Source of the DNA: Thermodesulfobacteriota bacterium
GTDB taxonomy: Bacteria > Desulfobacterota > Desulfobulbia > Desulfobulbales > SURF-16
Length of the DNA: 13,932 nucleotides
Reading direction: 5' to 3'
Assembly: GCA_039715015.1 (NCBI GenBank)
Contig: JBDLIE010000066.1
Location: 1-13,932 of the forward strand
A model generated the notes under the pieces. It ran no database searches. It saw nothing but the letters and a program-made list of their open reading frames with translations, and was not told where the DNA came from. Position 1 is the first letter of the stretch. Each line of letters begins with the position of its first letter. A program made the position numbers and the translations under genes. This document shows positions 224 to 13,932 of this stretch, piece after piece.

Positions 224-1033
224 ATGCCAATACAACAAGATTTTTTGTCTTATCATAAATCAATCGGCAGAGAACTGAAGTCATCAGAGAGAAGAATTAG
301 AGACCTTATTGGCTCTTCTCACTGGCTAACTGATGGTGAGCATAAAGAAAGCATTCTACGGAAAGTGATTTCCGATTTTGCACCAGAAATATATAGAATT
401 GGTACAGGGTTTGTATGCTATCCGGGAGTAGCGAATGGCAATCAAAATAACTCTGGTCAATTAGATATTTTAATAACCTCTAAGATGAACCCAACTCTCT
501 ATAAAAGTGGGGAACTTCATTTTGTAACACCTGATTGCGCAAATGCAATAATCGAGGTTAAAACGAAAGTTTCAAATGGGGAAAAACTTCGAGAAGTCTT
601 ATCGAAGCTGAGTAATGACATAGAATCTATTCGAAATAATTCTGACAACTCAACTTCTTGCTGGGCTGGTCTATTTATATACAATACAGGCCAGCTTACG
701 GATAGAAATGTTCTTGAGATGCTTCAAAGTGTCACAAATGGTGATCGAATGAGGGTGATAAACTGCGTGGCAATTGGTGAAAATAAATTTGTACGATTTT
801 GGGAACATGGGCATTCAACAAGCAACTTAGGCCAAGATCCAATCTGGCATTCATATGACTTAAGAGATCTTTCACATGCCTATTTTGTTAGTAATTTAAT
901 ATCGCATTTATCTCCTAATTTCGATGATATATCATCTGAAGCTTGGTTTCCAGTCACTGGATCGAAAGAAATTCATAGATCTCTTTATGCAAAGTTGGCT
1001 GACAACGTAGCATTTGAATTTCAACAAGGCTAA
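224..1033 (+). CDS. Integron cassette protein, PD-(D/E)xK nuclease-like (DUF6602-like), 269 aa
   Basis: AAGGA RBS before the ATG. Motifs GEHKESILR, GTGFV, SGQLDILI and IIEVKT match the E...QxD...EVK layout of DUF6602/restriction-endonuclease-fold proteins (recognised from memory). The stop TAA lies inside the attC R'' box. AT-rich. Confidence 0.7.
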   Translation: MPIQQDFLSYHKSIGRELKSSERRIRDLIGSSHWLTDGEHKESILRKVISDFAPEIYRIGTGFVCYPGVANGNQNNSGQLDILITSKMNPTLYKSGELHFVTPDCANAIIEVKTKVSNGEKLREVLSKLSNDIESIRNNSDNSTSCWAGLFIYNTGQLTDRNVLEMLQSVTNGDRMRVINCVAIGENKFVRFWEHGHSTSNLGQDPIWHSYDLRDLSHAYFVSNLISHLSPNFDDISSEAWFPVTGSKEIHRSLYAKLADNVAFEFQQG

Positions 1034-1120
1034 CCAAAAAATTAAGCGGACGTCGTGAAGTGTGGCGGCGCTAGACGCGGCAAGTTCAATGGCGCCGTCC
1101 GCTTATTTAGGTCGTTAGAA
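1028..1120 (+). repeat. attC site of cassette 1 (93 bp)
   Basis: R'' GGCTAAC (1028-1034) is the exact reverse complement of the cassette's 5' core GTTAGCC (205-211). Arms AAATTAAGCGGAC / GTCCGCTTATTT pair with one extrahelical base. R' GTTAGAA at 1114-1120. Confidence 0.92.
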
Positions 1121-1135
1121 ATAATAAGGAAGCGA

Positions 1136-3055
1136 ATGAAGTACCGTTCAGAAATTGATGGTTTAAGAGCCATTGCAGTAATCCCAGTTATATTATTTCA
1201 TGCAGGATTTTCCACATTTAGTGGTGGATTTGTTGGCGTTGATGTTTTTTTCGTTATCAGTGGATACCTAATTACAACGATAATCCTCTCTGAAATGGAG
1301 AAAGGTACGTTTTCCATAGTCGACTTTTATGAAAGACGCGCGAGGCGTATTCTTCCTGCGCTTTTTCTGGTCATGTTTATTTCGCTACCCTTTGCATGGT
1401 TCTGGTTGCTACCAAGCGATATGAAGAGCTTTTCTCAAAGCTTGGTCGCTGTTTCATCATTTTCTTCAAATATTCTTTTTTGGCTTACGTCTGGCTATTG
1501 GGATACTGCGAGCGAATTGAAGCCTCTTTTACACACATGGAGTTTGGCGGTTGAAGAGCAATACTATGTTCTTTTTCCTCTATTTCTCATGCTAATGTGG
1601 AACTATAGAAAGCGTTGGATTCTTGGTGCTTTCATACTAATCGCTGGAATCAGTCTTATCACGGCACAGTGGGGTGCATATCACAATCCATCGGCAGCAT
1701 TTTATCTGTTACCAACAAGAGGTTGGGAACTTGCTATTGGTGCAGGCATCGCTTTTTATTTTCTATACCGTAAGCAGACTATTCGAACTCTCCTTTCGCA
1801 TAAGTTGGTTGATGAGGTACTTGGATTGCTCGGCTTGCTGATGATATGTTATGGGGTGCTTATCTTTGACGAAACAACTCCATTTCCCAGTATTTATGCC
1901 TTGATACCAACTATTGGAACTGGACTAATCATTCTTTTTTCATCATATGAAACAATAGCTGGTCGTCTGTTAAGCTCTAAACCATTAGTAGTAATAGGCT
2001 TAATTAGTTACAGTGCATATCTTTGGCATCAACCACTACTCGCTTTCGCAAGACACAGAGCCATTACTGATCCAAGTGATCTGCAATATGCTACTATAGC
2101 TTTTCTCTCGTTTCCACTTGCCTATTTAAGTTGGAAATATGTCGAGAAACCATTCAGAAATAGAAATAGAATCAGCAAAAAGAATATTTTCTTATTTTCA
2201 CTAATTGGGTCTGTCGTATTTATTTCCATTGGTTTAGCAGGGCATGTGACAAATGGATTTTATAATCGATACTCTGATAGCCAAAAAATCTTATTAGATA
2301 GTCATAAATACGATCGAAAAGAAGCGTACCGTGAGGGAGTCTGTTTTTTAGAGCCTGGTCAGAAATATTCTGACTTTAAGGATGAGTGCTTCTCTCCTGA
2401 CTCTGTCAATGGCGAGGATTTAATTATTCTCTGGGGTGACTCTCATGCAGCTGCGCTATCTTATGGGTTAAAAAAAATCATTCATGATTTGATACAATTA
2501 ACAGCAAGCGGGTGTACACCGATAATAGGATATAACCCAGCAGAAAGACCTCATTGCATTGATATTAATAATTATGTTTTAAGAAAAATTGAGCAGTTAA
2601 AACCTGAATTCTTAGTTCTGCATGCTAATTGGTTTAATCCATTAAATAAAATCGAATCTGGGTTAAAGGAAGGTTTGCTACATACAATATTGTATATTAG
2701 ATCAGTATCCCCAAAAACTAAAATCATTATCATTGGAGGCGTTCCTCAATGGAAACCTACCTTGCCATCGCTATTGTTAAAAAGCAATATTGAATTAAGA
2801 GAAATAGCTTATGTTCATTCTCAAAACCAAAAAAAAATACGAAATGCAGACAAAATGTTAGCATTGGTTGCAAATGAAAATGAATTAACATTCATCTCTC
2901 TTTTGGATATTTATTGTAAAGATGAAGAATGCTTGTCGTCTGTAAAATCAGGAAACACATATGAACCTTTCGCATGGGATTATGGGCACCTAACTAAATC
3001 ATCTTCTTCTTTAGTAGCAGAAAATATTCTGCCCACATTAATGCAAGCAAAGTGA
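1136..3055 (+). CDS. Acyltransferase-3 + SGNH fused O-acetyltransferase (OafA/YrhL family), 639 aa, cassette-borne
   Basis: Motifs RSEIDGLRAIAV, GGFVGVDVFFVISGYLIT, RRARRILP and HTWSLAVEEQYY, about 10-11 hydrophobic segments, then an SGNH domain with GDSHA and DYGH (DxxH). Start moved from 1055 to ATG 1136 (AAGGA RBS at 1126-1130) because the longer ORF runs through the attC. Confidence 0.92.
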   Translation: MKYRSEIDGLRAIAVIPVILFHAGFSTFSGGFVGVDVFFVISGYLITTIILSEMEKGTFSIVDFYERRARRILPALFLVMFISLPFAWFWLLPSDMKSFSQSLVAVSSFSSNILFWLTSGYWDTASELKPLLHTWSLAVEEQYYVLFPLFLMLMWNYRKRWILGAFILIAGISLITAQWGAYHNPSAAFYLLPTRGWELAIGAGIAFYFLYRKQTIRTLLSHKLVDEVLGLLGLLMICYGVLIFDETTPFPSIYALIPTIGTGLIILFSSYETIAGRLLSSKPLVVIGLISYSAYLWHQPLLAFARHRAITDPSDLQYATIAFLSFPLAYLSWKYVEKPFRNRNRISKKNIFLFSLIGSVVFISIGLAGHVTNGFYNRYSDSQKILLDSHKYDRKEAYREGVCFLEPGQKYSDFKDECFSPDSVNGEDLIILWGDSHAAALSYGLKKIIHDLIQLTASGCTPIIGYNPAERPHCIDINNYVLRKIEQLKPEFLVLHANWFNPLNKIESGLKEGLLHTILYIRSVSPKTKIIIIGGVPQWKPTLPSLLLKSNIELREIAYVHSQNQKKIRNADKMLALVANENELTFISLLDIYCKDEECLSSVKSGNTYEPFAWDYGHLTKSSSSLVAENILPTLMQAK

Positions 3056-3088
3056 ATCTAAACCATAAATCAATGGTGTACGAAAAAT

Positions 3089-3175
3089 TGCTAACAAACG
3101 CATGCACTCGGACAGCAAAAAGCGCCCCTCGTACCTCGCTCTGCTTTTTGCTGCCGGTGATGCGAGGCGTTAGGT
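3089..3175 (+). repeat. attC site of cassette 2 (87 bp)
   Basis: R'' TGCTAAC (3089-3095; one mismatch to the complement of GTTAGAA). Arms GCATGCACTCGGACAGCAAAAAGC / GCTTTTTGCTGCCGGTGATGC pair with extrahelical bases. R' GTTAGGT at 3169-3175. Confidence 0.92.
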
Positions 3176-3182
3176 TTTCACT

Positions 3183-3794
3183 ATGAGCGGATGTTGTAAT
3201 CAAGATTCTTTAGATCGGCTGCGCGAGCGACAGCGCGGAACATTACAAATTGTCCTCGGCATCAACGCCGTTATGTTCTGTATCATCGTTGCCGCTGCGT
3301 TCTATAGTAGATCAACCGCCCTGCTTGCTGACAGCCTTGACAATCTTGGCGATGCATTAACATATGGCCTCAGCCTTTACGCAGTTTCAAGGGGCGCTAC
3401 CGTCAAGGCCAAAGTTGCCCTGTTTAAAGGAGGGCTCATTTTCCTTGCGGCTTTCGCCGTGGCTGCTCAAATTATTTACAAGTTATTTGTCCCAAGCGTC
3501 CCCGTCTTCGAGGTTATGGGCGCGTTTAGTCTTCTTGCTTTTGCAGCAAACTCCCTTTGTCTTTTTCTTCTGTGGCGGCACCGTCACGAAGATGTGAATA
3601 TGAGTTCGGTGTGGGAGTGCTCGCGAAACGACATAGCATCAAATCTTTCTGTTTTCGTGGCGGCCGGTGCAGTTTGGTTCACCGGTTCAGGCTGGCCCGA
3701 TATTGCGGTTGCACTTAGCCTCGTGTGGTTCTTAATGCGTTCCGCTATTCGCGTTATTTCTTCAGCCATGGCAGAGCTTCGTGCGGCAGCCTGA
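3183..3794 (+). CDS. Cation diffusion facilitator (Co/Zn/Cd efflux-type), short form with no C-terminal cytosolic domain, 203 aa
   Basis: About six hydrophobic segments, CDF-type TM2 motif ALLADSLDNLGD, TM5 motif CSRND and an N-terminal CC pair. The protein ends shortly after the last TM segment. Confidence 0.85.
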   Translation: MSGCCNQDSLDRLRERQRGTLQIVLGINAVMFCIIVAAAFYSRSTALLADSLDNLGDALTYGLSLYAVSRGATVKAKVALFKGGLIFLAAFAVAAQIIYKLFVPSVPVFEVMGAFSLLAFAANSLCLFLLWRHRHEDVNMSSVWECSRNDIASNLSVFVAAGAVWFTGSGWPDIAVALSLVWFLMRSAIRVISSAMAELRAAA

Positions 3795-3850
3795 CAAGTC
3801 GTCTGGGCGGACGCCGAGAAAGAAGGCGGCGCTCAACTCTATCGTTAATA
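3789..3850 (+). repeat. Degenerate terminal attC of cassette 3 (62 bp)
   Basis: R'' reads GCCTGAC (3789-3795; AAC changed to GAC, overlapping the TGA stop). Imperfect arms GTCTGGGCGGACGCC / GGCGGCGCTCAAC. R' GTTAATA at 3844-3850. Confidence 0.75.
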
Positions 3851-4074
3851 TTGCCACATCCAACCTCAGTAATTTCCCAATTCACCCCATGTTGACATCA
3901 CTACTGTCCGGTTCCAGATACGAAATACTTCCTCCTCTGGTTCCATCATTGAATTGACTAAGGGCGAGGGATCGGTTCCCCACCCTCATCTGTAGGATTA
4001 GCCGTAAAGCGTTTCTATCCACCTAAGAGCTTCGGTGTCATTCACTTTACCAAGATACCTTTGGGGCAAACTAG

Positions 4075-4094
4075 GGGTCAATCCTGACCCTTTT
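4075..4094 (+). terminator. Possible weak intrinsic terminator downstream of the array
   Basis: GGGTCA-ATCC-TGACCC followed by TTTT; the stem is only 6 bp. Confidence 0.3.
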
Positions 4095-4230
4095 CTCATA
4101 GTATATCGTCACGCGCCATTCCCAAGCAGGTAAAAACCTGCTCACACCATATTTACCCCTGGTGCCTTATCTATTCTGTGCCCGGAATTTCTCCATAGGA
4201 AGCCGGTGATAAACTCGGGGTGAAATATGA

Positions 4231-4438
4231 CACTTTTCGAAATCTGATTACCATCGAATCTCAGCCACTTTCCTAGGATGATGTCGTAGGAGCCCGGCCC
4301 TCCGGGCGATAAAGAGACAATTCTGACTCGTCAGGTAGTCGTCCATCGCTCACAGGGGTGAGCTCCTACAGATCCCTATTGGTCGCTTGATGATGAGATA
4401 ATGGCTGAAACATGGTGGTAATCAGATTTCGAAATGTG
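4231..4438. mobile_element. MITE-like non-coding element with 23-bp terminal inverted repeats
   Basis: CACTTTTCGAAATCTGATTACCA (4231-4253) versus TGGTAATCAGATTTCGAAATGTG (4416-4438): 22 of 23 positions are complementary. Inner TCAGCCA (4261-4267) pairs with TGGCTGA (4402-4408). No ORF and no clear target-site duplication. Confidence 0.6.
4286..4369. repeat. Inverted doublet of GTAG-family REP-like palindromes (REPIN-like)
   Basis: + strand 4286-4310 reads GTAGGA-GCCCGG-CCCT-CCGGGC-GAT; - strand 4369-4345 reads GTAGGA-GCTCAC-CCCT-GTGAGC-GAT. Confidence 0.8.
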
Positions 4439-4614
4439 ATTAATGACGGCAGATTAAAAGAATCAAAAGCCAGCCAATCAATCACAAGCAAATCATCAAG
4501 AAAGGCAGGAGGTGCCAAAGCTGCTGAAGGATTACAAGCAGCCTGTCCCAGAGTAGAAGGGCTGCCTTCTGGATTACCCTTGGCCTGGTAATTTCAGGAA
4601 ATTAAACCCCTTTC

Positions 4615-5403
4615 TCAAATCTGCCTGGGACCTGAATTAGGCTTCTGGGCAAATGACTTGCTGAGCGGTCCCAAAACAGTGAGCGTGTCACCCGGCTTGA
4701 GGTCGAAGAGGTAGGAGGATATCTTTGCGGCCGGCGTTTTGGCAGCAGCTGTTGGTTGCCGTGGGGAGCTAAGGCGGATCCTCACCAGCAAGATTGCCTT
4801 TTCGTCTGGGCAGTCGACCATGGTGTAGGTCCGGGTCAACCTTGCCTGTCTTCCAGATTCTGTATTATTTTCGGAGGCAAGGGGTGGACATTCAATCTGA
4901 ACAAACTTGCCCTCCCTGAATGAGGCCTCTGCATGGCCAGGCAATTCCAGGATCAGTTCTTTGGCGGAGGGGGCCGTAGGGTCGTTGGCGCGGACCGGGC
5001 ACTGCCATCTTCTGACCCCGAAAAACTCGGGGGGGATTTCGATTGCCAGATCGCTTTTCACCGGGACCTGGCATGACAGACGGTAACCGGCCCGGATCTG
5101 TCGCCCGGAGAGGCGGCTCTGTTCCGTGGCTAAAAGATCTCCGCCGCCTTCAAGAATTTTTAGGCGGCATTGCCCGCAGATAGCGTTCCCCCCGCAGGCA
5201 GAGGGCAAAAAGATCCCCCCGCTAGCCAGGGCGTCTATGAGCTTGCCTCCGGACAGTACAGTAATGTCATTGCCCGGGGCACCATTGATCCGGATGGTAA
5301 CCTGCCGGGCGCCCACCAGTTTGGCCCGGGCCAGAAGAATGAGGCTTACCAGGACAAGAATGATCGTGGTAAAGATGCTGATGCCGAGAATGATTTCTAT
5401 CAT
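4615..5403 (-). CDS. nqrF: Na+-NQR subunit F-like protein, C-terminally truncated (262 aa; TM anchor + 2Fe-2S + shortened FAD domain, no NAD-binding domain)
   Basis: N-terminal TM helix, SACGGNAICGQC...RLSCQV iron-sulfur motif, RTYT (canonical RAYS), KISSY and LKPGDTLTVLGP, then a stop. GGGAGMAP and CGPP are absent. Last gene of the nqr operon. ATG at 5403 preferred over the TTG at 5412. Confidence 0.85.
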   Translation of the reverse strand: MIEIILGISIFTTIILVLVSLILLARAKLVGARQVTIRINGAPGNDITVLSGGKLIDALASGGIFLPSACGGNAICGQCRLKILEGGGDLLATEQSRLSGRQIRAGYRLSCQVPVKSDLAIEIPPEFFGVRRWQCPVRANDPTAPSAKELILELPGHAEASFREGKFVQIECPPLASENNTESGRQARLTRTYTMVDCPDEKAILLVRIRLSSPRQPTAAAKTPAAKISSYLFDLKPGDTLTVLGPLSKSFAQKPNSGPRQI

Positions 5404-5417
5404 GGTTAGCAAGAACC

Positions 5418-6029
5418 CTACAGTTGAATGCCGGAAAAGAGCAGGAAGACCATGGCCATCAGGCCCACCGTCATAAAGGTGAGGCCAAGGCCCCGCAGGG
5501 CCAGCGGGGCGTCGCTGTAGCGCAGCTTTTCCCGAATGCCGGCCAGGGCGGCAATGGCCAAGGCCCAGCCGCTTCCGGCCCCGAGGCCATATACCATGCT
5601 CTCGCTAAAGTTGTATTGCCGCTCCACCATGAAGAGCGAGCCGCCCAGTATGGCGCAGTTCACCGTGAGCAGGGGGAGAAAGATCCCCAAGGCGGTGTAG
5701 AGGGCCGGGAAAAATCGGTCCAGGACCATCTCCAGGATCTGGACCATTGCCGCAATCACCGCAATGGCGCAGATCAGGCCGAGAAAGCTGAGGTCCACCC
5801 CGGGCAGACCGGCCCAGGTCAGGGCCCCTTGTCTGAGCAGGTAACGGTAGATCAGGTTGTTGGCCGGAATGGTAATGGCCTGCACCACAATCACCGCTGC
5901 CCCGAGTCCCAGGGCGGTGCTTACCTTCTTGGACATAGCCAGAAAGGTGCACATGCCGAGGAAGACGCCCAGGGCCAGGTTCTCAAGGAAGACGGCCTTT
6001 ACAAGGATGTTGAGAAAGTGTTCCAGCAT
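5418..6029 (-). CDS. nqrE: Na+-translocating NADH:quinone reductase subunit E
   Basis: LGMCTFLA and [14 protein letters not shown] motifs (Fe-binding Cys), hydrophobic 203-aa protein, GGGAG RBS, operon position. Confidence 0.95.
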
Positions 6030-6041
6030 AACGGTGCTCCC

Positions 6042-6216
6042 CTACTCTTTTTCCGCGTAAAAGTTTACCAGCACCTCATCTTCGTCCTTTTTTGCCTTCT
6101 CGAATAGAGGGGCTATGCTTCAAAGTCCCAAATGAACGAATCTAAGGCACTGGTAAACTTTTAGGGCCTTGAGTTTAGCCAAATTTCATAGCCCTGGTGA
6201 ACTACTCTTTTTCCGC
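6042..6216. repeat. 15-bp direct repeat CTACTCTTTTTCCGC (6042-6056 and 6202-6216) flanking a 145-bp insert with a long inverted repeat
   Basis: The repeat is the last four codons plus stop of nqrD. Inside, TAAAAGTTTACCAG (6058-6071) and CTGGTAAACTTTTA (6150-6163) are a perfect 14-bp inverted repeat. Confidence 0.9.
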
Positions 6217-6822
6217 CAGTTCCGGTTTCCAGGTCCTGAGTGCCCAGATACTCAGGCCGATCAGAAAAAAAGCGCTTGGGGCCAGAAGCATCAGGCCATT
6301 GGGCTGGTACCAGCCGCCGTCCCGGACCAGGGGTAGAACTTGCCGGCCAAACAACCTGCCGCTGCCCAGAAGTTCACGCCAGAAAGCGACCGTAAGCAGG
6401 ATAAGACCGTAGCCCAGGCCGTTGCCGATGCCATCCACAAAACTGTCCCAGACCCTGTTATGCATGGCAAAGCCCTCGCTTCGGCCCAGGACGATACAAT
6501 TGGTTATGATCAGGCCGACATAGACGGAAAGCTGTTTGCTTAGCCCATAACTGAAGGCCTTGATCAGCTGGTCAGCCACAATCACCAGGGAAGAGATAAT
6601 GGTCATTTGGACAATAATCCTGATACTGTCCGGGACGTGGTTGCGGATGAGGCTCACGGCCGCACCGGCGCAGGCAACAACCAGGGTCACGGTCACGGCC
6701 ATGACGCAGGCGGTGGTTAGTTTAGTGGTCACCGCCAGGGCGGAACAGATGCCCATGATCTGGCAGGCGATGGGATTTTTATTGACAATCGGTGTCAGGA
6801 GGATCTTTTTGGCCTTGCTCAT
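6202..6822 (-). CDS. nqrD: Na+-NQR subunit D
   Basis: [22 protein letters not shown] and [10 protein letters not shown] motifs; 206 aa; start overlaps the nqrC stop (ATGA). Confidence 0.95.
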
Positions 6823-7607
6823 TGCTTCCCTCCTTGGCGGCGCATTTGGGCAAGGAAGGGCCCGAATCCGTCTTGGCCAAGCCAGTACAGGAGCATGTTC
6901 TCAACGCCCCGGCTGGTAATGGTGGCGCCCGAGATGGCGTCGACCTGGTGGGCGGCAACCTCAGGATCAGCATCCTTGCCGCCCTTGACCAAGCGGATAT
7001 TTGGCAGCCACTCAGGATCAAAGACAATTTTTCCTTGCCATTGGGCCTGCCATTCCGGGCGGTCGACCTCGCCGCCAAGACCCGGAGTCTCGCCATGTTG
7101 ATAAAAGGTGATTCCCTTGACGGTCTTGGTGTCCTTGGCCAGGGCGATGAAGCCGTACAAGGTGGACCAGAGTCCTTTGCCCTGCACAGGAAGAATAATC
7201 TGCCGGGTCTCACCGTTTTCTTTGACAAGATAGATCACACCGTACCGGGAGCGTACCTTGATTTTTGCTTTGTCAAGGGCAGTGGGGATGAGATGGCGCA
7301 GGGCCGGATCCACGACAGGCCTGCGCGGATCAAAGGCGGCAGGTTCCAGACCGGCAACCATGTCGCCGCTTTCCAGATCCACCACCACTGCCTCTACATT
7401 GTCAAAGGCCTCTTCGATTTCTTGTCTGCCGGCCTTGGCGTCTTTGAGAAGCCCGCCAGCAAGAAGGATGTTCTTTTTCAGATCAAGGGTTCTGTTCATC
7501 TCCTGACGGGGGCGCAAGAGGACGGCGGCGCTGGAGACCAGCAGCGCGCAGACGATACAGAGCAGGAAGGCGACCCCAAAGGTTTTTCGAACACTACAGA
7601 CTGCCAT
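6819..7607 (-). CDS. nqrC: Na+-NQR subunit C
   Basis: N-terminal TM helix, [18 protein letters not shown] and [11 protein letters not shown] (covalent FMN Thr). ATG at 7607 has AGGAGG upstream, so it is preferred over 7646. Confidence 0.95.
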
Positions 7608-8799
7608 GGCGTGCCAACCTCCTGTGCATAGTGCGCTGGACAACAAGATAATCGATGAGGGGGGCCAAACAGTTGCCGAACAGAATCGCCAGCATCATGC
7701 CTTCCGGGAAGCCGGGATTTAGGACCCGGATAAGCACGGCCATGACACCGATGAGCAGCCCGTACAGCCATTGTCCCTTGGCGGTCACGGCCGAGGTAAC
7801 CGGGTCGGTCGCCATGAAGACCGCGCCAAAGGCAAAGCCGCCAAGGACGAAATGCCAAGCCGGGGTAACACCAAACATGGGATTGGTGACATTGGTGCTG
7901 GAGTTGAACAGCAAGGCGAGGGACACCATGCCGATGCAGATGCTGAGCATAATCCGCCAGGAGGCTATACCGGCGCTTAAAAGAATGGCGGCCCCTATCA
8001 GACAGGCAAGGGTCGAGGTCTCGCCCATGGAGCCCGGCATCAATCCCAGGAAGGCCTGTGCCCAGCTGACGTTCAGGCCGGCAACCCCTTCGGCTGCGGC
8101 GCGGCCCAGCGGGGTGGCGCCGGATACTGCGTCAACTGATGATGTCCACACCCTCTCGCCGGTGAGAGAGGCCGGGTAAGAAAAAAAGAGAAAGGCGTAG
8201 CCGGTGAGGGCCGGATTGAGAAAATTTCTGCCAATGCCGCCGAAGATGAGCTTGCCGATGACGATGCCAAAGCTGATGCCCATGGCCACCAGCCATAAGG
8301 GAATAGTCGGCGGCAGAATCAAGGGAAACAGCAAGCCGGTGACCAGGAAGCCTTCATGGATCTCCTGGTTCCGCTGGCAAGAGAAAACAACTTCCCAAGC
8401 ACCTCCGACTAGATTGGAAACCAGAAGTACAGGAAAGAAGTAGAAAAAGCCGTGCAGGACGTTGGCGCTGACGCTGTGCGGGGAAAAACCGAGTCCCGAG
8501 GCGCGGAGCAGGTCGAACCGCCAACCAGCCGGCTCAATGAGACCGGCATGGGCCAGGGCCAGGTTGGCCTGCAGGCCGGTATTGTACAACCCTGCTAAGG
8601 TGCACGGGATCAAGGCGATGACCACCAGGCCCATGGTTTTTTTTATATTGAGACCATCGCGGACATGGGGGGCGCAAGAAGTGACCTGGCCCGAGGTGTA
8701 GAGAAAAGAGTCGAGTGCCGCAAAGATCGGTTGGTAATGAGCCAGTTTGCCCTGTTTTTCAAAAAGCGGCCGCTGTTTATCGAGAAATTTTTTCAGCAC
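7594..8799 (-). CDS. nqrB: Na+-NQR subunit B
   Basis: APHVRD, VGGAWEV, EGFLVT, FGGIGRNFLNPAL, DAVSGATPL (FMN Thr), GSMGETS, MATDPVT and APLIDY motifs; GTG start. Confidence 0.95.
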   Translation of the reverse strand: MLKKFLDKQRPLFEKQGKLAHYQPIFAALDSFLYTSGQVTSCAPHVRDGLNIKKTMGLVVIALIPCTLAGLYNTGLQANLALAHAGLIEPAGWRFDLLRASGLGFSPHSVSANVLHGFFYFFPVLLVSNLVGGAWEVVFSCQRNQEIHEGFLVTGLLFPLILPPTIPLWLVAMGISFGIVIGKLIFGGIGRNFLNPALTGYAFLFFSYPASLTGERVWTSSVDAVSGATPLGRAAAEGVAGLNVSWAQAFLGLMPGSMGETSTLACLIGAAILLSAGIASWRIMLSICIGMVSLALLFNSSTNVTNPMFGVTPAWHFVLGGFAFGAVFMATDPVTSAVTAKGQWLYGLLIGVMAVLIRVLNPGFPEGMMLAILFGNCLAPLIDYLVVQRTMHRRLARHGSL

Positions 8800-8801
8800 G
8801 G

Positions 8802-10145
8802 TTATCCTTTTTTTTCAATCCGACGCAAACTTTGACGAAGAAGCGGCCCGAAATCATTTTTGCACAGGTCCACAAAGGTGGCCAAAGCGAGATCCTCCTC
8901 ATCCAGGCCCAGGCAACCGAGGGCCTTGGCCTGTTCCATGTCTTGCAGGAGAAGGGCGCGCAAGAGAAAGGTCGGTTCCGTATCCAACGGCATCACTTTT
9001 TCAAAGCGGCCGATGGGGATAAGGGGTCGCTTACTGCCGTTCACCGCAGTGGTGAGGGCAAAACTTTTTGCCGGCCACAGTGGGGAGAGAAATGCGGGTT
9101 TGACGAAAAATTTCGCTCTGCCGGGCAAGGCCCAGCCGAAGAGTTTTCTTTCACGCCCCTCGCGGAGAACGGAAACCTGATTGTGAAATCGGCCCAGGTA
9201 AGCAAGCGCTCCTTGCGCTAACCTGCCCCCTAAAATGCTTCCGGAAATCAGCCTGTTTTCTCCAGCCTTGAGTTCCCCCTCTGTCAGATCGGCAATACTT
9301 GCCCCCAGTCTGGCCCTCAGAAGACGGGGCTGCTGCACCTGGGGACCGGCCAGGGAAATCACCCTTTGGGTAAGGAGCTCGCCGCTGCTGAAAAGATGGC
9401 CAATGGCCGCCACATCCTGGTAGCCGATGGACCAGACCGTTTTTTCCATACCGACCGGATCGAGAAAGTTAATATGGGTCCCGGCCAGACCAGCCGGATG
9501 GGGGCCGGCGAATTCTCTGGTGCTGACCTCAGGAAGGTCGCTGCCACTCAAGACCGTCCCCGGCGCCTTGCAGAGAAAAAGCGGGCCGCGGGTCAATTTT
9601 TTGAGAATTTTCAGACCTTGGTCAAATCCAGCGCCATAGTTGTGCAGCACCGTTTCTACGCAAGGGGCCAAGGGATTGGTGTCCATGGCAGTGACGAATA
9701 TGGAATGCGGTTCACTTCCCGGCAGCGGTGTTTTGGAAAAAGGCCTGGTGCGCAAAGCGGTCCAGAGGCCCGACTCGAGAAGCAGCTCTGTGACCTCTGC
9801 AACGCTCAAGCGCTCGATCTTCCGGCCCATATAGGAGGCAAAGGGGACGCTCTCGTCTCCCTGCACCTTGATAACCACTGCGAGCAGTTCTTTTTTCGCC
9901 CCCCATTGGATACTACTTACAGTCCCGGCCGCTGGCGCAGTGAATTTGACGCCCGGCCTCTTTTTGTCCTCAAAAAGCAGCTGCCCGACCCGGACGTAAT
10001 CGTTTTCTGCCACGGCCAGGGCCGCTTGCAGGTCAGGATAGTCGGGACCAAGGAGGGCCACGGACCCAGGCAGCGGCCCCTCGCCTACTGCCTGCTCTGG
10101 CGCCCCTGAAATGGAAAGATCAAACCCCTTTTTGATTGTGATCAT
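8802..10145 (-). CDS. nqrA: Na+-NQR subunit A
   Basis: MITIKKGFDL start, LFEDKK, LRTRPFSK, AMDTNPLA, GPHPAGLAGTHI and LDEEDLAL motifs. The ATG at 10145 gives 447 aa, a typical NqrA length. Confidence 0.95.
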   Translation of the reverse strand: MITIKKGFDLSISGAPEQAVGEGPLPGSVALLGPDYPDLQAALAVAENDYVRVGQLLFEDKKRPGVKFTAPAAGTVSSIQWGAKKELLAVVIKVQGDESVPFASYMGRKIERLSVAEVTELLLESGLWTALRTRPFSKTPLPGSEPHSIFVTAMDTNPLAPCVETVLHNYGAGFDQGLKILKKLTRGPLFLCKAPGTVLSGSDLPEVSTREFAGPHPAGLAGTHINFLDPVGMEKTVWSIGYQDVAAIGHLFSSGELLTQRVISLAGPQVQQPRLLRARLGASIADLTEGELKAGENRLISGSILGGRLAQGALAYLGRFHNQVSVLREGRERKLFGWALPGRAKFFVKPAFLSPLWPAKSFALTTAVNGSKRPLIPIGRFEKVMPLDTEPTFLLRALLLQDMEQAKALGCLGLDEEDLALATFVDLCKNDFGPLLRQSLRRIEKKG

Positions 10146-10285
10146 GGTGTGCGCTTTTTCCTTTTGAAGCGTTAGACCATAAGTCCGACACATCTCCGTT
10201 TTAGTAGTAGATATTGACAGATGCGTGTAAAGAGCGAAGCATCAAGACCTCTTGCCGGGTCAATGCAGAGTTGAAAATGTAAATT

Positions 10286-10314
10286 AGTATAGTAAACCGA
10301 TGATGCAGATACAA
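10286..10314 (-). promoter_or_regulatory. Candidate sigma70 promoter for the nqr operon
   Basis: The - strand reads TTGTAT (10314-10309), N17, TATACT (10291-10286), about 140 bp upstream of the nqrA ATG. Confidence 0.55.
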
Positions 10315-10366
10315 TGATCAAGAAAAAGATAGCTGAGAGCTCTTTAAAAGCACATAGCCACTTGCG

Positions 10367-10426
10367 GTCTCAAATTGAGGCAGTTGAGGAAGGAGGGAAA
10401 AGAGAGGAGGCGTCTGAAATTGAGAC
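10367..10426. promoter_or_regulatory. Tandem imperfect palindromes, candidate transcription-factor (bEBP-type UAS) sites
   Basis: GTCTCAAATTGAGGC (10367-10381) and GTCTGAAATTGAGAC (10412-10426) are identical at 13 of 15 positions, 45 bp apart; consensus palindrome GTCTCAAnTTGAGAC. Confidence 0.55.
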
Positions 10427-10441
10427 ACCAACCTAAAGAAT

Positions 10442-11812
10442 TTACTCAAGGCCATATTCCTTGATCTTATTGAGCAGGGTCTGACGGGCAATACCAAGTT
10501 TCTTGGCGGTCTGTGACTTATTGCCGGCTGTTTCTTCGATGGTGGTCCGGATCATTTCCCTCTCCATATCCCGCAGGGTGAGACCGCTGCTGGTGGCCTG
10601 CAGGTTACTGCCGTCCTGTTTTTTGCCATGCGGGTTGAGCTGGGGAGGGAGTTCCTTTGGGGTGATCTGTTCACCTTGGCAGAGGATGATGGCACGCTCT
10701 ATACAATTTTCCAGCTCACGAATATTGCCGGGCCAAGCATGGTGCAGAAGGAGGTTGATGGCCTGGGGATGGATGGAGCGGATATCCTTTTTGTTCTTTT
10801 CTGCATAGCGTTTCAGGAAATAACGGGCCAGATCTGGAATATCTCCGCCACGATCACGCAGGGGCGGCAGGATAATGGGCACCACGCTCAACCGGAAAAA
10901 AAGATCCTGCCGAAACTCCCCCTGCTTGACCATCTCTTCCAGATCCCGATGACTGGCAGCCACCATACGGACATCAACCTTGATCGTCTTGCTGCCTCCT
11001 AGACGTTCAATCTCTCCCTCCTGTAAGGCGCGGAGAATTTTGGCCTGGGTGGGCAGGGTCATGTCGCCGATCTCATCTAAGAACAAAGTGCCGTGGTGGG
11101 CCTGTTCAAAACGGCCCTTGCGCTGCTCCGTGGCGCCGGTGAAGGCACCCTTCTCATGGCCGAAGAGTTCGCTTTCAAGCAGATTTTCATGGAGGGCGGC
11201 GCAGTTGACCTTGATAAACGGCCCCTCCTTTCTTGCGCTATTTTCATGGAGGGCATTGGCAATCAGCTCCTTGCCGGTGCCAGATTCGCCACCGATGAGC
11301 ACAGTGGCATCGGAAGGCGCAACTAAGCGCAGTGTGGCAAACATCTCCTGCATGGCTTTGCTTGAACCAATGATATTATCAAAGGAAAAATTCTCCTGGA
11401 GCCTCTCCTTGAGGTGGATATTTTCCTGCTCCAGTTTTTCCACATGGAGGGCCTTGGCAATGATGAGTTGCAGCTCATCCATGTCAATGGGCTTGGTGAC
11501 ATAGTCAAAGGCGCCCCGTTTCATGGCCACAACAGCGGACTCCACCGAGGAAAAGGCGGTGATGACAATGACCGGCACCCGGATGGCGGCCTCTTGCAGG
11601 GCTGATAAGGTGGTAAGGCCGTCCATACGCTCCATCTTCAGATCAAGGAGGATCAAGTCAACATCATGGTCGGTTAATGCGGTAAGAACCTGATCACCGT
11701 CATCCACCTCCAGGATGTTGAATTCGGCTCCGGCCAGATTTGCCTTGAGCATGGTGCGATGGGCCTTGTCATCATCGACAAGGAGAACTGTTGTGGCGCT
11801 CGGTTCTGTCAT
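10442..11812 (-). CDS. Sigma54-dependent response regulator, NtrC family (ZraR/HydG-like), 456 aa
   Basis: Receiver domain (LLVDDD, LLDLKM, TKP), AAA+ domain with GESGTGKE, GAFTGA, LFLDEIGD, FRQDLFFRL and WPGNIRELEN, and a C-terminal Fis-type HTH. Confidence 0.95.
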   Translation of the reverse strand: MTEPSATTVLLVDDDKAHRTMLKANLAGAEFNILEVDDGDQVLTALTDHDVDLILLDLKMERMDGLTTLSALQEAAIRVPVIVITAFSSVESAVVAMKRGAFDYVTKPIDMDELQLIIAKALHVEKLEQENIHLKERLQENFSFDNIIGSSKAMQEMFATLRLVAPSDATVLIGGESGTGKELIANALHENSARKEGPFIKVNCAALHENLLESELFGHEKGAFTGATEQRKGRFEQAHHGTLFLDEIGDMTLPTQAKILRALQEGEIERLGGSKTIKVDVRMVAASHRDLEEMVKQGEFRQDLFFRLSVVPIILPPLRDRGGDIPDLARYFLKRYAEKNKKDIRSIHPQAINLLLHHAWPGNIRELENCIERAIILCQGEQITPKELPPQLNPHGKKQDGSNLQATSSGLTLRDMEREMIRTTIEETAGNKSQTAKKLGIARQTLLNKIKEYGLE

Positions 11813-13524
11813 CTACTGCCTCTTTGCGTGCCTGAAGGGAATAAAATATCGATGCGGGTTCCCTTTTCCGGGGCTGACACCACCTCAAAACTTCCATGAT
11901 GCTGGTCTATAATCTGGTGGCTGACGGCAAGCCCCAGACCAGTGCCGCTCTTCTTGGTGGTAAAGAAAGGGTCAAACATTTTTTCCAGTTCTTCGTCGTT
12001 CATACCTGGGCCGGTATCCTCTATCCAAATCCGTACGCCATCCCCTTTCTGAGAGGCGCCCAGTTCTATAGAGTCACCGGCAGGAGTGACCGCCATGCTG
12101 TTTTTCAGCAAGTTGATGAGCACCTGGAGAAGGAGGTCAGGGTCAGCCTCCATGGCCATACCCTCCTCACATTCCAGATGTAAGACAAGCTGTTTATCCG
12201 TGAAATCATGTTCTAAAAGTTTGGCGGCCTTGGAAAGCAGGGAGCAGGTGTCAATCTTCTGAAAATCGGGATCGCGGGGCCGGGCGAATTGTAAGAGCGC
12301 TGATATGCTGTGATTGAGGCGATCAACCTCACCGATCATTAGGTCTGCATACTCCCTGCCGTTTTCGTCATCCTTAAAGTGCCTGCTGAAATATTGGGCA
12401 AAGCCGCGCAGAGTGCCCAGGGGGTTTCTGATCTCGTGGGCGATACCGGCCGCCATTTGGCCCAAGGCCGCTAAACGGCGGGAGCGTTCAAGCTGTTGCT
12501 CAAGGGCTTGGATATCGCGCATGTCGCGCAAGATGAGAACCGAACCAAGCTTCTTGCCTTCTTGGTCCTGGAGCCGAGAGCCGCTCACCTTAACCGGTAT
12601 CTGTTTACCGGCATCCAGGGGGCAGTCAAGAGGGGCGTCCAGCAAGGGCTGGTCCAGATTCAACAGGTCCATCGGCCAGTGGCGAAACACCTCATCTATC
12701 CTTTTATGGACCAACGCCGAAAAAGGTTTGCAGACCAGTTCTTCCGCCTTAGCGTTACAGGAGACGATCCGGCTCATCCGGTCAAGGGTGATAAGACCGG
12801 CGGGCATACTCTCAATGACATTTTCAGTATAGAGCTCCATATTGGCCAGGGTGGAACGACTGACCCGTATCCCTTGATAGAGAAAGAGAAAATAAAAACC
12901 GGCGCAGCCAAGCAGAAACAGGATGGCGGCCATAATCAAGCCGTGTTCAACATCCTGCTCCCGGGCCTGATCAAACTCCGAGGTCCGTAAACCAATATAG
13001 ATGACCAGTTGACCTGAATCCTCCTCGCGCATATTCTGCATCCAGCGCTGGTGCATGGTCTTCATCTGTGGAGAGATATCAGCCAGGGGTTGAAAGATAG
13101 TGGCAACCTCGAAAACATCGGCTGAGGCGATAAGGGTGGTTATTGGCTTTTCCTGGGCCAAAACCTGGCTGACATCAGGGCGCTCTTCGGCCTGGGGCCA
13201 TTGTCCGGCCTTTGCAACCAGACGACCTTGCTCGTCAACAATATGGATATAGGCAACTGTCTCGGTCCTGGTTGTTTCGCTGACCAGGGTGCTTAAGGGA
13301 TCATCGCCGCGCATGTAATGCATCATTGAGGTGCGGGCCCCGGCCTCAAAACTGCGAATCAAGGTCAGTCCCTGGTTGAGGAGGAACCTCTCCATGAGGG
13401 CCTGTTCGCGCTTGAAGCTGCTAGTGGTCATTATCAGTACGAGGGTGGCCAGGAGAATACTCGCCACCACAATGGACAGGGCAATTTTGGACATTTTAAA
13501 TGTCTGGGTTTCCCTGGGGATCAT
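11809..13524 (-). CDS. Membrane sensor histidine kinase with PAS domain (ZraS/HydH-like), 571 aa
   Basis: Two TM segments around an extracytoplasmic domain (LIRSFEAGARTSM, ZraS-like), a PAS region, H-box AAGIAHEIRNPL, N-box QVLINLLKNS, DTGPG, FDPFFTTK and GTGLGL. Its stop overlaps the regulator start (ATGA). Confidence 0.93.
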   Translation of the reverse strand: MIPRETQTFKMSKIALSIVVASILLATLVLIMTTSSFKREQALMERFLLNQGLTLIRSFEAGARTSMMHYMRGDDPLSTLVSETTRTETVAYIHIVDEQGRLVAKAGQWPQAEERPDVSQVLAQEKPITTLIASADVFEVATIFQPLADISPQMKTMHQRWMQNMREEDSGQLVIYIGLRTSEFDQAREQDVEHGLIMAAILFLLGCAGFYFLFLYQGIRVSRSTLANMELYTENVIESMPAGLITLDRMSRIVSCNAKAEELVCKPFSALVHKRIDEVFRHWPMDLLNLDQPLLDAPLDCPLDAGKQIPVKVSGSRLQDQEGKKLGSVLILRDMRDIQALEQQLERSRRLAALGQMAAGIAHEIRNPLGTLRGFAQYFSRHFKDDENGREYADLMIGEVDRLNHSISALLQFARPRDPDFQKIDTCSLLSKAAKLLEHDFTDKQLVLHLECEEGMAMEADPDLLLQVLINLLKNSMAVTPAGDSIELGASQKGDGVRIWIEDTGPGMNDEELEKMFDPFFTTKKSGTGLGLAVSHQIIDQHHGSFEVVSAPEKGTRIDILFPSGTQRGSR

Positions 13525-13837
13525 CGCTTGTTTTCCCTAGTCATACGTATCATTACAGCAGCAGTTACGGCGGGTGGTTGGATTTATTATAAGATGTTTT
13601 GCTACCCTCTTAACTCAGGGCACACCTCTTGTTACCTGTCATCATAGCGGAATTCCAGCAAAAATGACAGTGCGGAGCTATGACAGAAAAGAACCTTTGA
13701 ACCAGTTGCTGATCATGGAGGATTTCTTCCATTTCAGCCTTGATTCAAAGGAACTCTTCCCTTTAATGACGTTTCAGAGCTACCTAAGCCGATAAACCCA
13801 GACATCATTAACACGGTCATAGTGGCCCCGCCTAAGG

Positions 13838-13871
13838 AAAGGCCTTACAGCGAAAATGCTGTAAGGCCTTT
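13838..13871. terminator. Perfect 14-bp hairpin, probable intrinsic terminator following the tRNA 3' end
   Basis: AAAGGCCTTACAGC-GAAAAT-GCTGTAAGGCCTTT, 7 bp downstream (on the - strand) of the tRNA-like CCA. Confidence 0.75.
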
Positions 13872-13878
13872 AATATCT

Positions 13879-13923
13879 TGGTGGCGGGACCAGGAATCAA
13901 ACCAAGGACACACGAATTTTCAG
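13879..13923 (-). pseudogene. Degenerate 3' half of tRNA-Phe(GAA); probable att-site remnant
   Basis: The - strand reads CTGAAAA-TTCGT-GTGTC-CTTGG-TTTGATT-CCTGG-TCCCGCC-ACCA: GAA anticodon loop, T-arm with TTC changed to TTT, acceptor strand and CCA. The bases 5' of the loop (CAGGC) do not pair properly with TTCGT. Confidence 0.75.
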
Positions 13924-13932
13924 GCCTGCGTG

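What the first reader, a model, noticed from the sequence alone, without database searches (positions are those of the whole stretch)
4615..10145. Otherwise intact Na+-NQR operon whose NqrF has no NADH-binding domain: possible alternative electron-input variant
Seen: NqrA-E keep their cofactor motifs (SGAT in B and C, Cys pairs in D and E) with no frameshifts. NqrF is 262 aa and keeps the TM anchor, four 2Fe-2S cysteines, RxY (RTYT at 4833-4822) and KISSY. It has a shortened loop before RxY and ends about 16 residues after TVLGP. I see no GGGAGMAP/CGPP remnant downstream, so this is not a simple frameshift. Established: canonical NqrF (about 407 aa) is the only NADH-oxidising subunit, and the related Rnf complex takes electrons from ferredoxin. 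Inference: either the complex is fed through the 2Fe-2S domain by another donor (ferredoxin/flavodoxin or a separate dehydrogenase), making it an undescribed Na+-pumping donor:quinone reductase, or a full nqrF elsewhere complements it, or nqrF is decaying. The clean stop near the domain boundary with the frame retained favours a functional remnant but does not prove it.
Basis: partly seen in the sequence, partly recalled or inferred. Interest (0 to 1): 0.75.

Follow-up and report, generated by a model that had tools for sequence, protein, structure and literature searches.

The report
Respiratory pump missing its NADH head
A small lineage of marine sulfur bacteria carries a respiratory sodium-pump operon whose electron-entry subunit lost its NADH-binding half long ago while the membrane core and the tethered iron-sulfur domain stayed under selection, so it may be a natural version fed by a donor other than NADH, although slow decay is not excluded.

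Summary
nqrF (4615-5403, 262 aa) aligns to V. cholerae NqrF 3-271 only, and no NAD-domain remnant lies downstream. An independently assembled contig matches across the stop, so it is not a mis-assembly. Four other database proteins (82-88% identical) end at the same point and share the same 19-residue loop deletion. None of the 125 other NqrF-positive genomes among 400 of the order shows this loss.

All divergence within this clade postdates the loss, yet it avoids conserved columns. The ratio (neutral = 1) is 0.13 in NqrB, about 0.25 in NqrD and 0.18 in the NqrF anchor plus 2Fe-2S domain. The FAD barrel (0.57) and NqrA (0.52) are relaxed, and NqrA lost charges where the NAD domain docks.

Best reading (0.5): a 'headless' Nqr fed through the retained 2Fe-2S domain by a separate cytoplasmic partner. 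Rivals are slow decay (0.3) and rescue by a 33%-identical full-length NqrF-like subunit elsewhere in the genome (0.12).

'Otherwise intact' is overstated: NqrB carries D52N, R209Y and E28A, so Na+ pumping is uncertain. There are no expression data and no matched dN/dS. The scan had not noted this on other DNA.

The parts
8802..10145 (-). nqrA, 447 aa; relaxed constraint; NqrF-docking charges changed (R40Q, R81W, E445K in V. cholerae numbering)
7594..8799 (-). nqrB, 401 aa; FMN threonine, riboflavin ligands and quinone-site glycines kept; D52N, E192L, R209Y and E28A changed
6819..7607 (-). nqrC, 262 aa; SGAT flavinylation motif at residues 226-229
6202..6822 (-). nqrD, 206 aa; C26 and C109 (V. 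cholerae C29, C112)
5418..6029 (-). nqrE, 203 aa; C27 and C125 (V. cholerae C26, C120)
4615..5403 (-). truncated nqrF, 262 aa: membrane anchor, 2Fe-2S domain and FAD-type barrel; no NAD-binding domain
5026..5313 (-). NqrF 2Fe-2S ferredoxin-like domain (residues 31-126); four cysteines invariant in 5 of 5 clade sequences
4648..5025 (-). NqrF FAD-type barrel (residues 127-252); 19 of 45 conserved columns altered; R210/Y212/S246 equivalents kept; 19-residue in-frame loop deletion near 4834-4884
6042..6201 (.). 160-bp genome-wide repeat with inverted arms between nqrD and nqrE; absent in related contigs of runs X3 and X4
10090..10174 (-). nqrA 5' end and leader, duplicated (79 of 86 identical) on adjoining contig C91 directly behind an accessory citrate synthase gene
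10442..13524 (-). sigma-54 response regulator and PAS histidine kinase (AtoC/ZraR-like and AtoS/ZraS-like, below cut-offs) lying between the two nqrA 5' copies; probably an inserted cassette, not part of the complex

Best explanation
This is an Nqr-derived membrane complex that no longer oxidises NADH itself but is still maintained. SHOWN: all redox-cofactor ligands from the NqrF 2Fe-2S cluster onward are present (NqrF 2Fe-2S, NqrD/E 2Fe-2S, FMN on NqrC and NqrB, riboflavin, quinone-site glycines); the NAD domain is gone; constraint persists on the core and on the anchor plus 2Fe-2S domain, and is relaxed on the FAD barrel and on NqrA. INFERRED: the tethered 2Fe-2S domain works like the flexible FeS domain of RnfB. 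It takes single electrons from a separate cytoplasmic partner and passes them through NqrD/E, NqrC and NqrB to menaquinone. The most likely partner is reduced ferredoxin or a flavodoxin-type carrier; a separate flavoprotein such as the C55 NqrF-like protein is possible. The barrel remnant is a docking or spacer domain that may still hold an exposed FAD. The direction could also be reversed (quinol to carrier, driven by the ion gradient). Whether cation pumping is retained is open.
For: (1) The same end point and loop deletion occur in 5 of 5 clade sequences (82-88% identical to the window protein), which form one clade on a 1.04 substitutions/site stem (quick tree, SH-aLRT 100). All within-clade change therefore postdates the loss. 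(2) Within-clade variable sites avoid conserved columns: NqrB 4 of 131 vs 58 of 267 (Fisher p=2e-7), NqrF 2Fe-2S 2 of 25 vs 21 of 69 (p=0.03), NqrD 4 of 101 vs 16 of 101 (p=0.008). The ratio is 0.13 for NqrB against 0.07 in leave-out canonical pairs, and 0.18 for anchor plus 2Fe-2S against 0.06. (3) Relaxation is focused where the lost function predicts: barrel 0.57 vs 0.11, NqrA 0.52 vs 0.14. Of 38 charge-conserved NqrA columns, 3 lost their charge class in both clade sequences. Two (R40, E445) are named NqrF contacts in PMC9325719 and the third (R81) lies beside K84/R85. (4) NqrD diverged less than NqrF between the window and proteins recorded on a 15,175-bp contig (13 of 206 vs 37 of 252, p=0.004), unlike uniform neutral drift. 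(5) Since the nqrA 5' duplication the 5,343 coding bases gained no stop. Neutral expectation is 5.9 stops, P0=0.003, counting all 7 differences; counting only the 4 away from the ragged end gives about 3.9 stops, P0 about 0.02 (same formula, by hand). (6) The host has ApbE, menaquinone (Mqn-type) genes, 4 oxoacid:ferredoxin oxidoreductase gamma domains, small ferredoxin-like ORFs, Rnf and a complex I without NuoF. The barrel's net charge is +3 to +5 against a median of -6 in 114 homologues, which suits an acidic carrier.
Against: No partner gene lies in the operon; the upstream neighbour is a citrate synthase. Constraint is weaker than canonical in every module tested. NqrB has D52N in 3 of 3 clade sequences, and PMC10643135 calls D52 strictly conserved at the proposed Na+ entry. 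It also has R209Y in 2 of 3 (116 of 116 homologues have R; it equals RnfD Arg130 beside the FMN ring) and E28A in the window only (116 of 116 homologues are acidic). A sister population has nqrA fused in frame to nqrB, and in one of its two contigs nqrA is also frameshifted. In this genome a 3.9-kb cassette with a terminator-like hairpin lies upstream of nqrA, and no sigma-70-like promoter was found (0 found, 0.6 expected by chance). The open-frame argument for the barrel alone is weak (1.9 stops expected, P0=0.15). The samples are tiny, related and found by protein search, which selects intact genes. The nearest full-length relative P0004 also has a basic barrel (+3). The NqrD/NqrF contrast was not significant on the second matched contig (p=0.08).
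Confidence: 0.5

Rival explanations
1. Slow decay. A horizontally gained gltA-nqr block lost its NADH input and became dispensable in a host that already has Rnf and a second Nqr-like cluster. It is eroding, and the window's copy may be silent.
For: All modules are more relaxed than canonical controls. There are changes at near-invariant NqrA and NqrB sites, several private to the window (7 in NqrA, 6 in NqrB). The sister population shows an nqrA-nqrB fusion and an nqrA frameshift. A cassette is inserted upstream, a repeat sits between nqrD and nqrE, and no promoter-like site was found. nqrA was found in 0 of 39 other genomes of the family. An unmatched hand estimate of pN/pS for nqrF (61 of 756 bases differ in an X3 contig; 32-45 residues differ among known clade proteins) runs from about 0.37 to about 0.9, against 0.05-0.15 in the 12 closest canonical pairs. 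The nearest full-length relative in the order (G057) has an in-frame stop in nqrD.
Against: NqrB constraint within the clade is close to canonical (0.13 vs 0.07; p=2e-7 against uniform change) although it all postdates the loss. All cofactor ligands are invariant. No stop or frameshift occurs in 5.3 kb since the duplication. Insertions fall between genes. The nqrA frameshift and the fusion sit where the window has runs of A and may be sequencing slips (inference).
Confidence: 0.3
2. Subunit rescue. The full-length NqrF-like protein of the C55 cluster (anchor, 2Fe-2S, FAD and NAD domains; beside pyruvate and isocitrate dehydrogenase genes) assembles on NqrA-E in place of the truncated subunit. 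The complex is then still an NADH:quinone reductase and the short NqrF is a passenger.
For: It is the only other anchor-Fer2-FAD-NAD protein in the genome. Its own cluster has no NqrA and has a 330-aa NqrB-like subunit without the N-terminal extension that forms the quinone site, so the two clusters look complementary.
Against: It is only about 33% identical and has its own B/C/D/E partners. The truncated subunit's anchor and 2Fe-2S domain are themselves constrained (0.18; four cysteines invariant), which a passenger would not need. NqrA's NAD-domain docking charges are eroded rather than kept. No close copy of the C55 proteins was found in the protein collection (clusters of 1), so co-occurrence in sister lineages is untested.
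Confidence: 0.12
3. The complex is a working electron conduit between a cytoplasmic carrier and the quinone pool or periplasm, but it is no longer coupled to Na+ pumping.
For: D52N is fixed in the clade, and E192L and D223E also occur. D52 is one of three acidic residues that PMC10643135 places on the proposed Na+ path. A role of E28 in Na+ translocation is recalled from Juarez 2009; that paper is not held.
Against: E157, the periplasmic glutamate, F338, F342, E144, D346 and D397 of NqrB, D133 of NqrD and E95 of NqrE are kept. The three nearest outside NqrB sequences also lack D52 and E192, so these changes may predate the truncation and be tolerated.
Confidence: 0.07
4. Assembly or binning artefact.
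For: The operon is absent from the 39 other family genomes searched.
Against: An X1 contig bridges the stop with 0 differences. X1 differs from the window at other sites, so it is not the identical sequence. Four further truncated proteins come from ENA, JGI and Logan records. The contig overlaps C91 and C54 exactly and shares repeat elements with many other contigs of the genome.
Confidence: 0.01

Closest known systems
Na+-NQR of Vibrio cholerae (PDB 7xk3, 8a1t; NCBIfam TIGR01936-TIGR01941)
   Same: Six subunits in the same order; all ligands of the two 2Fe-2S clusters, two FMNs and riboflavin; quinone-site G140/G141/F159.
   Different: NqrF lacks residues from about 272 to 408 (NAD domain, F406, and the acidic patch that docks on NqrA) and 19 loop residues. 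The FAD barrel is degenerate, the NqrA docking charges are changed, and NqrB has D52N, E192L and R209Y.
Rnf complex (RnfABCDEG; PDB 7zc6, 9eri)
   Same: Shared B/C/D/E core. The proposed input, a membrane-anchored flexible FeS domain reduced by a non-NADH donor, is how RnfB works (PMC12174285 section 13).
   Different: There is no polyferredoxin RnfB and no NAD/FMN/FeS RnfC. The output side is NqrB with its N-terminal quinone-site extension, and the shuttle is a 2Fe-2S domain. The host has a separate Rnf operon on C6.
Complex I without the NuoEFG module (e.g. Desulfurivibrio dismutans, PMC12142623)
   Same: An ion-pumping quinone reductase without its NADH module, with an unknown donor. The host has one on C24.
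   Different: Unrelated protein family: an analogy of design only.
NQR/RNF-like partial systems (Meheust et al. 2021, PMC8238504)
   Same: Rearranged Nqr/Rnf parts.
   Different: Those fuse an NqrB/RnfD-like domain to an NAD-binding domain and lack the full core. Here the full core is kept and the NAD domain is the part that is lost.

Membership tests
Na+-NQR | nqrABCDEF operon, NqrA-E above family cut-offs | tested here: met
Na+-NQR | NqrF membrane anchor and 2Fe-2S cysteines C70/76/79/111 | tested here: met
   ligands named in PMC10739449
Na+-NQR | NqrF NAD-binding domain and C-terminal F406 (NADH oxidation) | tested here: not met
   TIGR01941 score 236.8 < 295
Na+-NQR | FAD site in NqrF (Y212, S213, F406 per PMC10739449; R210 and S246 recalled) | tested here: inconclusive
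   R210, Y212 and S246 equivalents are invariant in 5 of 5; S213 is T, N227 is R/K, G243 and R229 vary, F406 is absent
Na+-NQR | NqrD/E intramembrane 2Fe-2S cysteines | tested here: met
Na+-NQR | FMN threonines NqrB-T236 and NqrC-T225, and an ApbE flavin transferase | tested here: met
   caveat: R209Y next to the NqrB FMN
Na+-NQR | Riboflavin ligands T162, G198, N200, N203, D346 and quinone-site G140, G141, F159 | tested here: met
Na+-NQR | Acidic residues of the proposed Na+ path (D52, E157, periplasmic Glu) and gate F338/F342 | tested here: inconclusive
   D52 is N in 3 of 3 clade sequences; the others are kept
Na+-NQR | Redox-coupled Na+ translocation | not testable with these tools
   needs biochemistry
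Rnf | RnfB polyferredoxin input and RnfC NAD/FMN/FeS output subunit | tested here: not met
   The subunits are NqrF-type and NqrA-type; the host's Rnf is a separate operon
Rnf | Ferredoxin as electron donor | not testable with these tools
   inferred only

The most novel reading that the evidence does not exclude
A naturally evolved, cation-pumping ferredoxin (or flavodoxin):menaquinone oxidoreductase built from Na+-NQR. It has Rnf-like one-electron input through a tethered 2Fe-2S domain and Nqr-like quinone output, with the FAD barrel turned into a carrier-docking domain and NqrA on its way to becoming a vestigial or fused scaffold.
Probability: 0.3. Interest if true: 0.78.

Novelty: new variant of a known kind. 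Interest (0 to 1): 0.56.

Why it matters
The reviews and structure papers read here describe NqrF as the NADH entry point of Na+-NQR and ferredoxin input as an Rnf property. A lineage that kept the core for a long time without the NAD domain would show that the Nqr pump can be re-plumbed to another donor. That would fill the ferredoxin-to-quinone slot between Rnf and Nqr and parallel the headless complex I in the same cell. It would also give a natural minimal construct for asking what the FNR domain, NqrA and NqrB-D52 contribute to coupling. If it is decay instead, it is a clean record of how such an operon erodes module by module, which is of modest interest. It is rare either way: five NqrF sequences in the collections searched.

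Tried and rejected
Simple frameshift or split gene: no NAD-domain remnant downstream and no stand-alone NAD domain in the genome.

Wider family of truncated NqrF: the profile search of 1.84 billion representatives gave one cluster for the clade. Among the listed hits that end early, the others end at scattered positions, mostly with non-homologous tails or none, as fragments and frameshifts do (their contigs could not be seen). Atlas clusters of 256-283 aa with Fer2 +/- FAD_binding_6 may be such fragments; not verified. In the order survey, the 7 matches with frames under 390 codons were 4 contig ends, 2 broken frames that keep the NAD domain and 1 C55-type paralogue.

DNA of sister operons for a true dN/dS was not obtained. 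Two metagenome scans, one genome scan, one viral scan, and family, order and phylum searches found none.

Expression: no RNA holder listed; this is no evidence either way.

Linkage of citrate synthase, the FMN dehydrogenase or the C55 genes to sister operons through cluster members: single-member clusters, uninformative. Rfam: no match. Promoter and terminator scans were at chance level downstream. A sigma-54 motif regex found nothing upstream of nqrA.

The AlphaFold model (pLDDT 79, pTM 0.71) folds a barrel, but it used full-length homologues as alignment, so it does not show FAD binding. No complex prediction was run, because no specific partner is claimed and the textbook pairs would pass by likeness.

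Literature: searches listed no paper describing an NAD-domain-less NqrF. One search returned only irrelevant papers. The library lacks most subscription journals and no supplements were read. Two papers I wanted (Pereira 2011, Juarez 2009) are not held.


Full report
OBSERVATION. The window is the whole contig C66 of genome G000 (3.01 Mb, 100 contigs, 99.99% complete, 0.53% contamination). It carries nqrABCDEF on the minus strand without stops or frameshifts. NqrA-E pass their NCBIfam cut-offs and NqrF does not (236.8 < 295). NqrF (ATG 5403, stop 4615; 262 aa) aligns to V. cholerae NqrF residues 3-174 and 207-271 and then ends. Pfam finds Fer2, a below-threshold FAD_binding_6 and no NAD_binding_1. 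The model folds into a membrane helix, a ferredoxin domain and a barrel (pLDDT 79), and its best structural matches are NqrF chains. No minus-strand frame of 3800-4900 holds NAD-domain sequence.

NOT AN ARTEFACT. One contig of run X1 spans 4399-6529 with no difference. X1 differs from the window at a few sites elsewhere, so it may be a near-identical strain or a re-assembly of the source; it is not fully independent. The window overlaps C91 and C54 exactly at its ends and shares repeat elements with many contigs.

NOT UNIQUE, BUT RARE. Of 1,300 hits (best 120 listed), two clusters were close: P0002 (88%) and P0003 (83%), both 257 aa; the next hit is 48% identical and 406 aa. The P0002 cluster adds P0121 (256 aa) and P0122 (265 aa). 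All five align to the same reference position (269-277) and stop 3-9 residues later. All five have a 17-residue loop where 114 of 114 full-length homologues have 36-37. They form one clade on a stem of 1.04 substitutions per site with short crown branches (quick tree; the careful search did not finish). Among 1.84 billion representatives the clade is one cluster. nqrA was found in 0 of 39 other genomes of the family. In 400 other genomes of the order, 125 have an NqrF match at E<=1e-32. The 7 matches with frames under 390 codons were contig ends, broken frames that keep the NAD domain, or a paralogue. The host is a Desulfobulbales member: earlier scan notes say so, it has dsrA, and the NqrF of a same-order genome is identical over the aligned part to a protein labelled Desulfobulbaceae. 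The runs that hold the stretch are labelled marine where labelled.

SELECTION AFTER THE LOSS. Because the truncation is shared, differences among clade members arose after NADH input was lost. I asked whether they avoid columns that are at least 95% conserved in outside homologues. NqrB (3 clade sequences, 116 outside): 4 of 131 vs 58 of 267, p=2e-7. NqrF 2Fe-2S domain (5 and 114): 2 of 25 vs 21 of 69, p=0.03. NqrF barrel: 9 of 45 vs 25 of 78, p=0.21, with 10 more conserved columns changed in all five. NqrD (5 and 32): 4 of 101 vs 16 of 101, p=0.008; these five come from one 90% cluster. NqrA (2 and 119): 11 of 131 vs 50 of 312, p=0.035. As a rate ratio against leave-out canonical pairs of similar identity: NqrB 0.13 vs 0.07, anchor plus 2Fe-2S 0.18 vs 0.06, barrel 0.57 vs 0.11, NqrA 0.52 vs 0.14. 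Clade pairs are not independent. Pairing of NqrB, NqrD and NqrF records to one operon rests on equal contig lengths (15,175 and 3,352 bp), and the NqrF partner of P0125 is unknown. NqrC and NqrE had one clade sequence each and could not be tested. True dN/dS could not be computed. An unmatched hand estimate for nqrF gives about 0.37 to 0.9 against 0.05-0.15 in close canonical pairs, so relaxation is clear and neutrality of nqrF as a whole is not excluded by that estimate.

ANATOMY OF WHAT CHANGED. Kept: NqrF C70/76/79/111; the NqrD/E cysteines; both FMN threonines; riboflavin ligands T162, G198, N200, N203 and D346; quinone-site G140, G141 and F159; E144, E157, F338, F342 and D397 (roles from PMC10643135 and PMC9325719 passages; the role of D397 comes from a reference title, and that of E144 is recalled). 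In the barrel the R210, Y212 and S246 equivalents are invariant, S213 is T, and N227, R229 and G243 are changed or variable. With 26 of 45 conserved columns retained, this is compatible with FAD binding but does not show it. PMC9325719 says NqrA R40, K61, K62, K84 and R85 hold NqrF E368-E399 (all deleted here), and that E443/E445 face K100/R104. Of 38 charge-conserved NqrA columns only R40, R81 and E445 lost their charge class in both clade sequences, and NqrF K100 is G in 4 of 5. Against function: NqrB D52N in 3 of 3, E192L in 3 of 3, R209Y in 2 of 3 (equivalent to RnfD Arg130 beside the FMN ring) and E28A in the window only. The three nearest outside NqrB sequences also lack D52 and E192.

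GENOMIC HISTORY. C91 continues the window. There an accessory citrate synthase (a close orthologue in 1 of 39 family genomes) is followed directly by an 86-bp copy of the nqrA 5' end (79 of 86 identical). The sister NqrA N-terminus (P0243, P0244) resembles the translation of that copy. I infer an ancestral gltA-nqr block, probably gained horizontally (no donor test was run), into which a 3.9-kb two-component cassette later inserted. Since then the coding region has gained no stop, against 5.9 expected if neutral (P0 0.003; 2.4-12.1 over the Poisson range), or about 3.9 (P0 about 0.02) if only the 4 internal differences count. A terminator-like hairpin follows the response regulator, and no sigma-70-like promoter was found before nqrA. 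A 160-bp repeat sits between nqrD and nqrE here and is absent from X3 and X4 contigs; an X3 contig instead has extra sequence between nqrE and nqrF. A sister population has nqrA fused to nqrB (862 aa), and on a second contig nqrA is also split.

HOST CONTEXT. G000 has an Rnf operon with ApbE on C6. It has an NqrA-less NqrBCDEF-like cluster on C55 with a full-length 367-aa NqrF-like protein, between isocitrate and pyruvate dehydrogenase genes (the dehydrogenase names are my reading of the sequences). It has complex I genes without nuoF, a state also reported for Desulfurivibrio dismutans (PMC12142623 passage). It also has Mqn-type menaquinone genes, four oxoacid:ferredoxin oxidoreductase gamma domains and small ferredoxin-like ORFs. 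The one flavodoxin domain found lies in a 414-codon frame, so a stand-alone flavodoxin was not found.

MECHANISM. In Nqr and Rnf a tethered FeS domain delivers single electrons to the NqrD/E cluster (PMC12174285 section 13). The variant keeps exactly that module under constraint and has let go of the parts that served NADH. The most economical working model is a headless Nqr that is reduced at the exposed 2Fe-2S domain (or an exposed flavin) by a separate partner and reduces menaquinone (0.5). Donor, direction and ion coupling are inferred, not shown. Slow decay (0.3), rescue by the C55 subunit (0.12) and an uncoupled conduit (0.07) remain. It works like Rnf on the input side and like Nqr on the output side. 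It fails the defining NADH-domain test for Na+-NQR and is not an Rnf.

NOVELTY. Paper searches listed nothing on an NqrF without its NAD domain, and earlier scan notes had no match by sequence or words. What I saw of each paper: passages of PMC10643135, PMC9325719, PMC4014512, PMC5016858, PMC12901251, PMC8238504, PMC9588780, PMC10739449, PMC10553843, PMC12142623, PMC13047784 and PMC12682751; the abstract, section 13 part 1 and section 16 of PMC12174285; no supplements, which could list atypical operons (for example those of PMC4014512 and PMC8238504). Pereira 2011, Juarez 2009 and the R210/S246 FAD mutagenesis are recalled only. Verdict: a real new variant of a known kind, interest 0.56.

Noticed in passing
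G000 C55:10576-14649 (L091): Five-gene NqrBCDEF-like cluster without NqrA, with a 330-aa NqrB-like subunit lacking the N-terminal quinone-site extension, between isocitrate and pyruvate dehydrogenase genes; its electron acceptor is unclear. Similar NqrF-like hits occur in G022, G030 and G071. NqrA-less nqr loci in sulfate reducers are recalled from Pereira 2011 (not held).
   Followed up: partly
proteins P0243, P0124, P0244 (contigs of 14,903 and 15,175 bp): In-frame NqrA-NqrB fusion (862 aa) in a sister population; a real fusion or a homopolymer slip.
   Followed up: partly
window 10090-13932 and G000 C91:1-349 (L090): Two-component cassette and an HD-domain fragment lying between 86-bp duplicated nqrA 5' ends, separating the operon from an accessory citrate synthase.
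   Followed up: yes
L090:1823-3010: FMN-dependent alpha-hydroxy-acid dehydrogenase-like ORF (PF01070) with N-terminal cysteine motifs upstream of the citrate synthase; a conceivable donor, but not shown to travel with the operon.
   Followed up: partly
window 4231-4442 and 6042-6201: Two families of small inverted-repeat elements with many copies in the genome; no Rfam match.
   Followed up: partly
L049 (G057:C178), nqrD: The nearest same-order operon with full-length NqrF has an in-frame TAG in nqrD.
   Followed up: no
proteins P0127, P0128, P0133: Sister NqrB group with G at D52, Q at K54 and H153, and L at E192; their NqrF partners were not found (0 of 400 other phylum genomes at E<=1e-150).
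   Followed up: partly
G000 C24:6129-17695: Complex I cluster without nuoEFG.
   Followed up: partly
window 224-3794: Low-GC block (DUF6602 protein, AT3-SGNH acyltransferase) and a short cation-efflux protein, unrelated to the operon.
   Followed up: no
protein P0126: 581-aa NqrB with an internally duplicated helix block on a 2-kb contig; possibly an assembly artefact.
   Followed up: no
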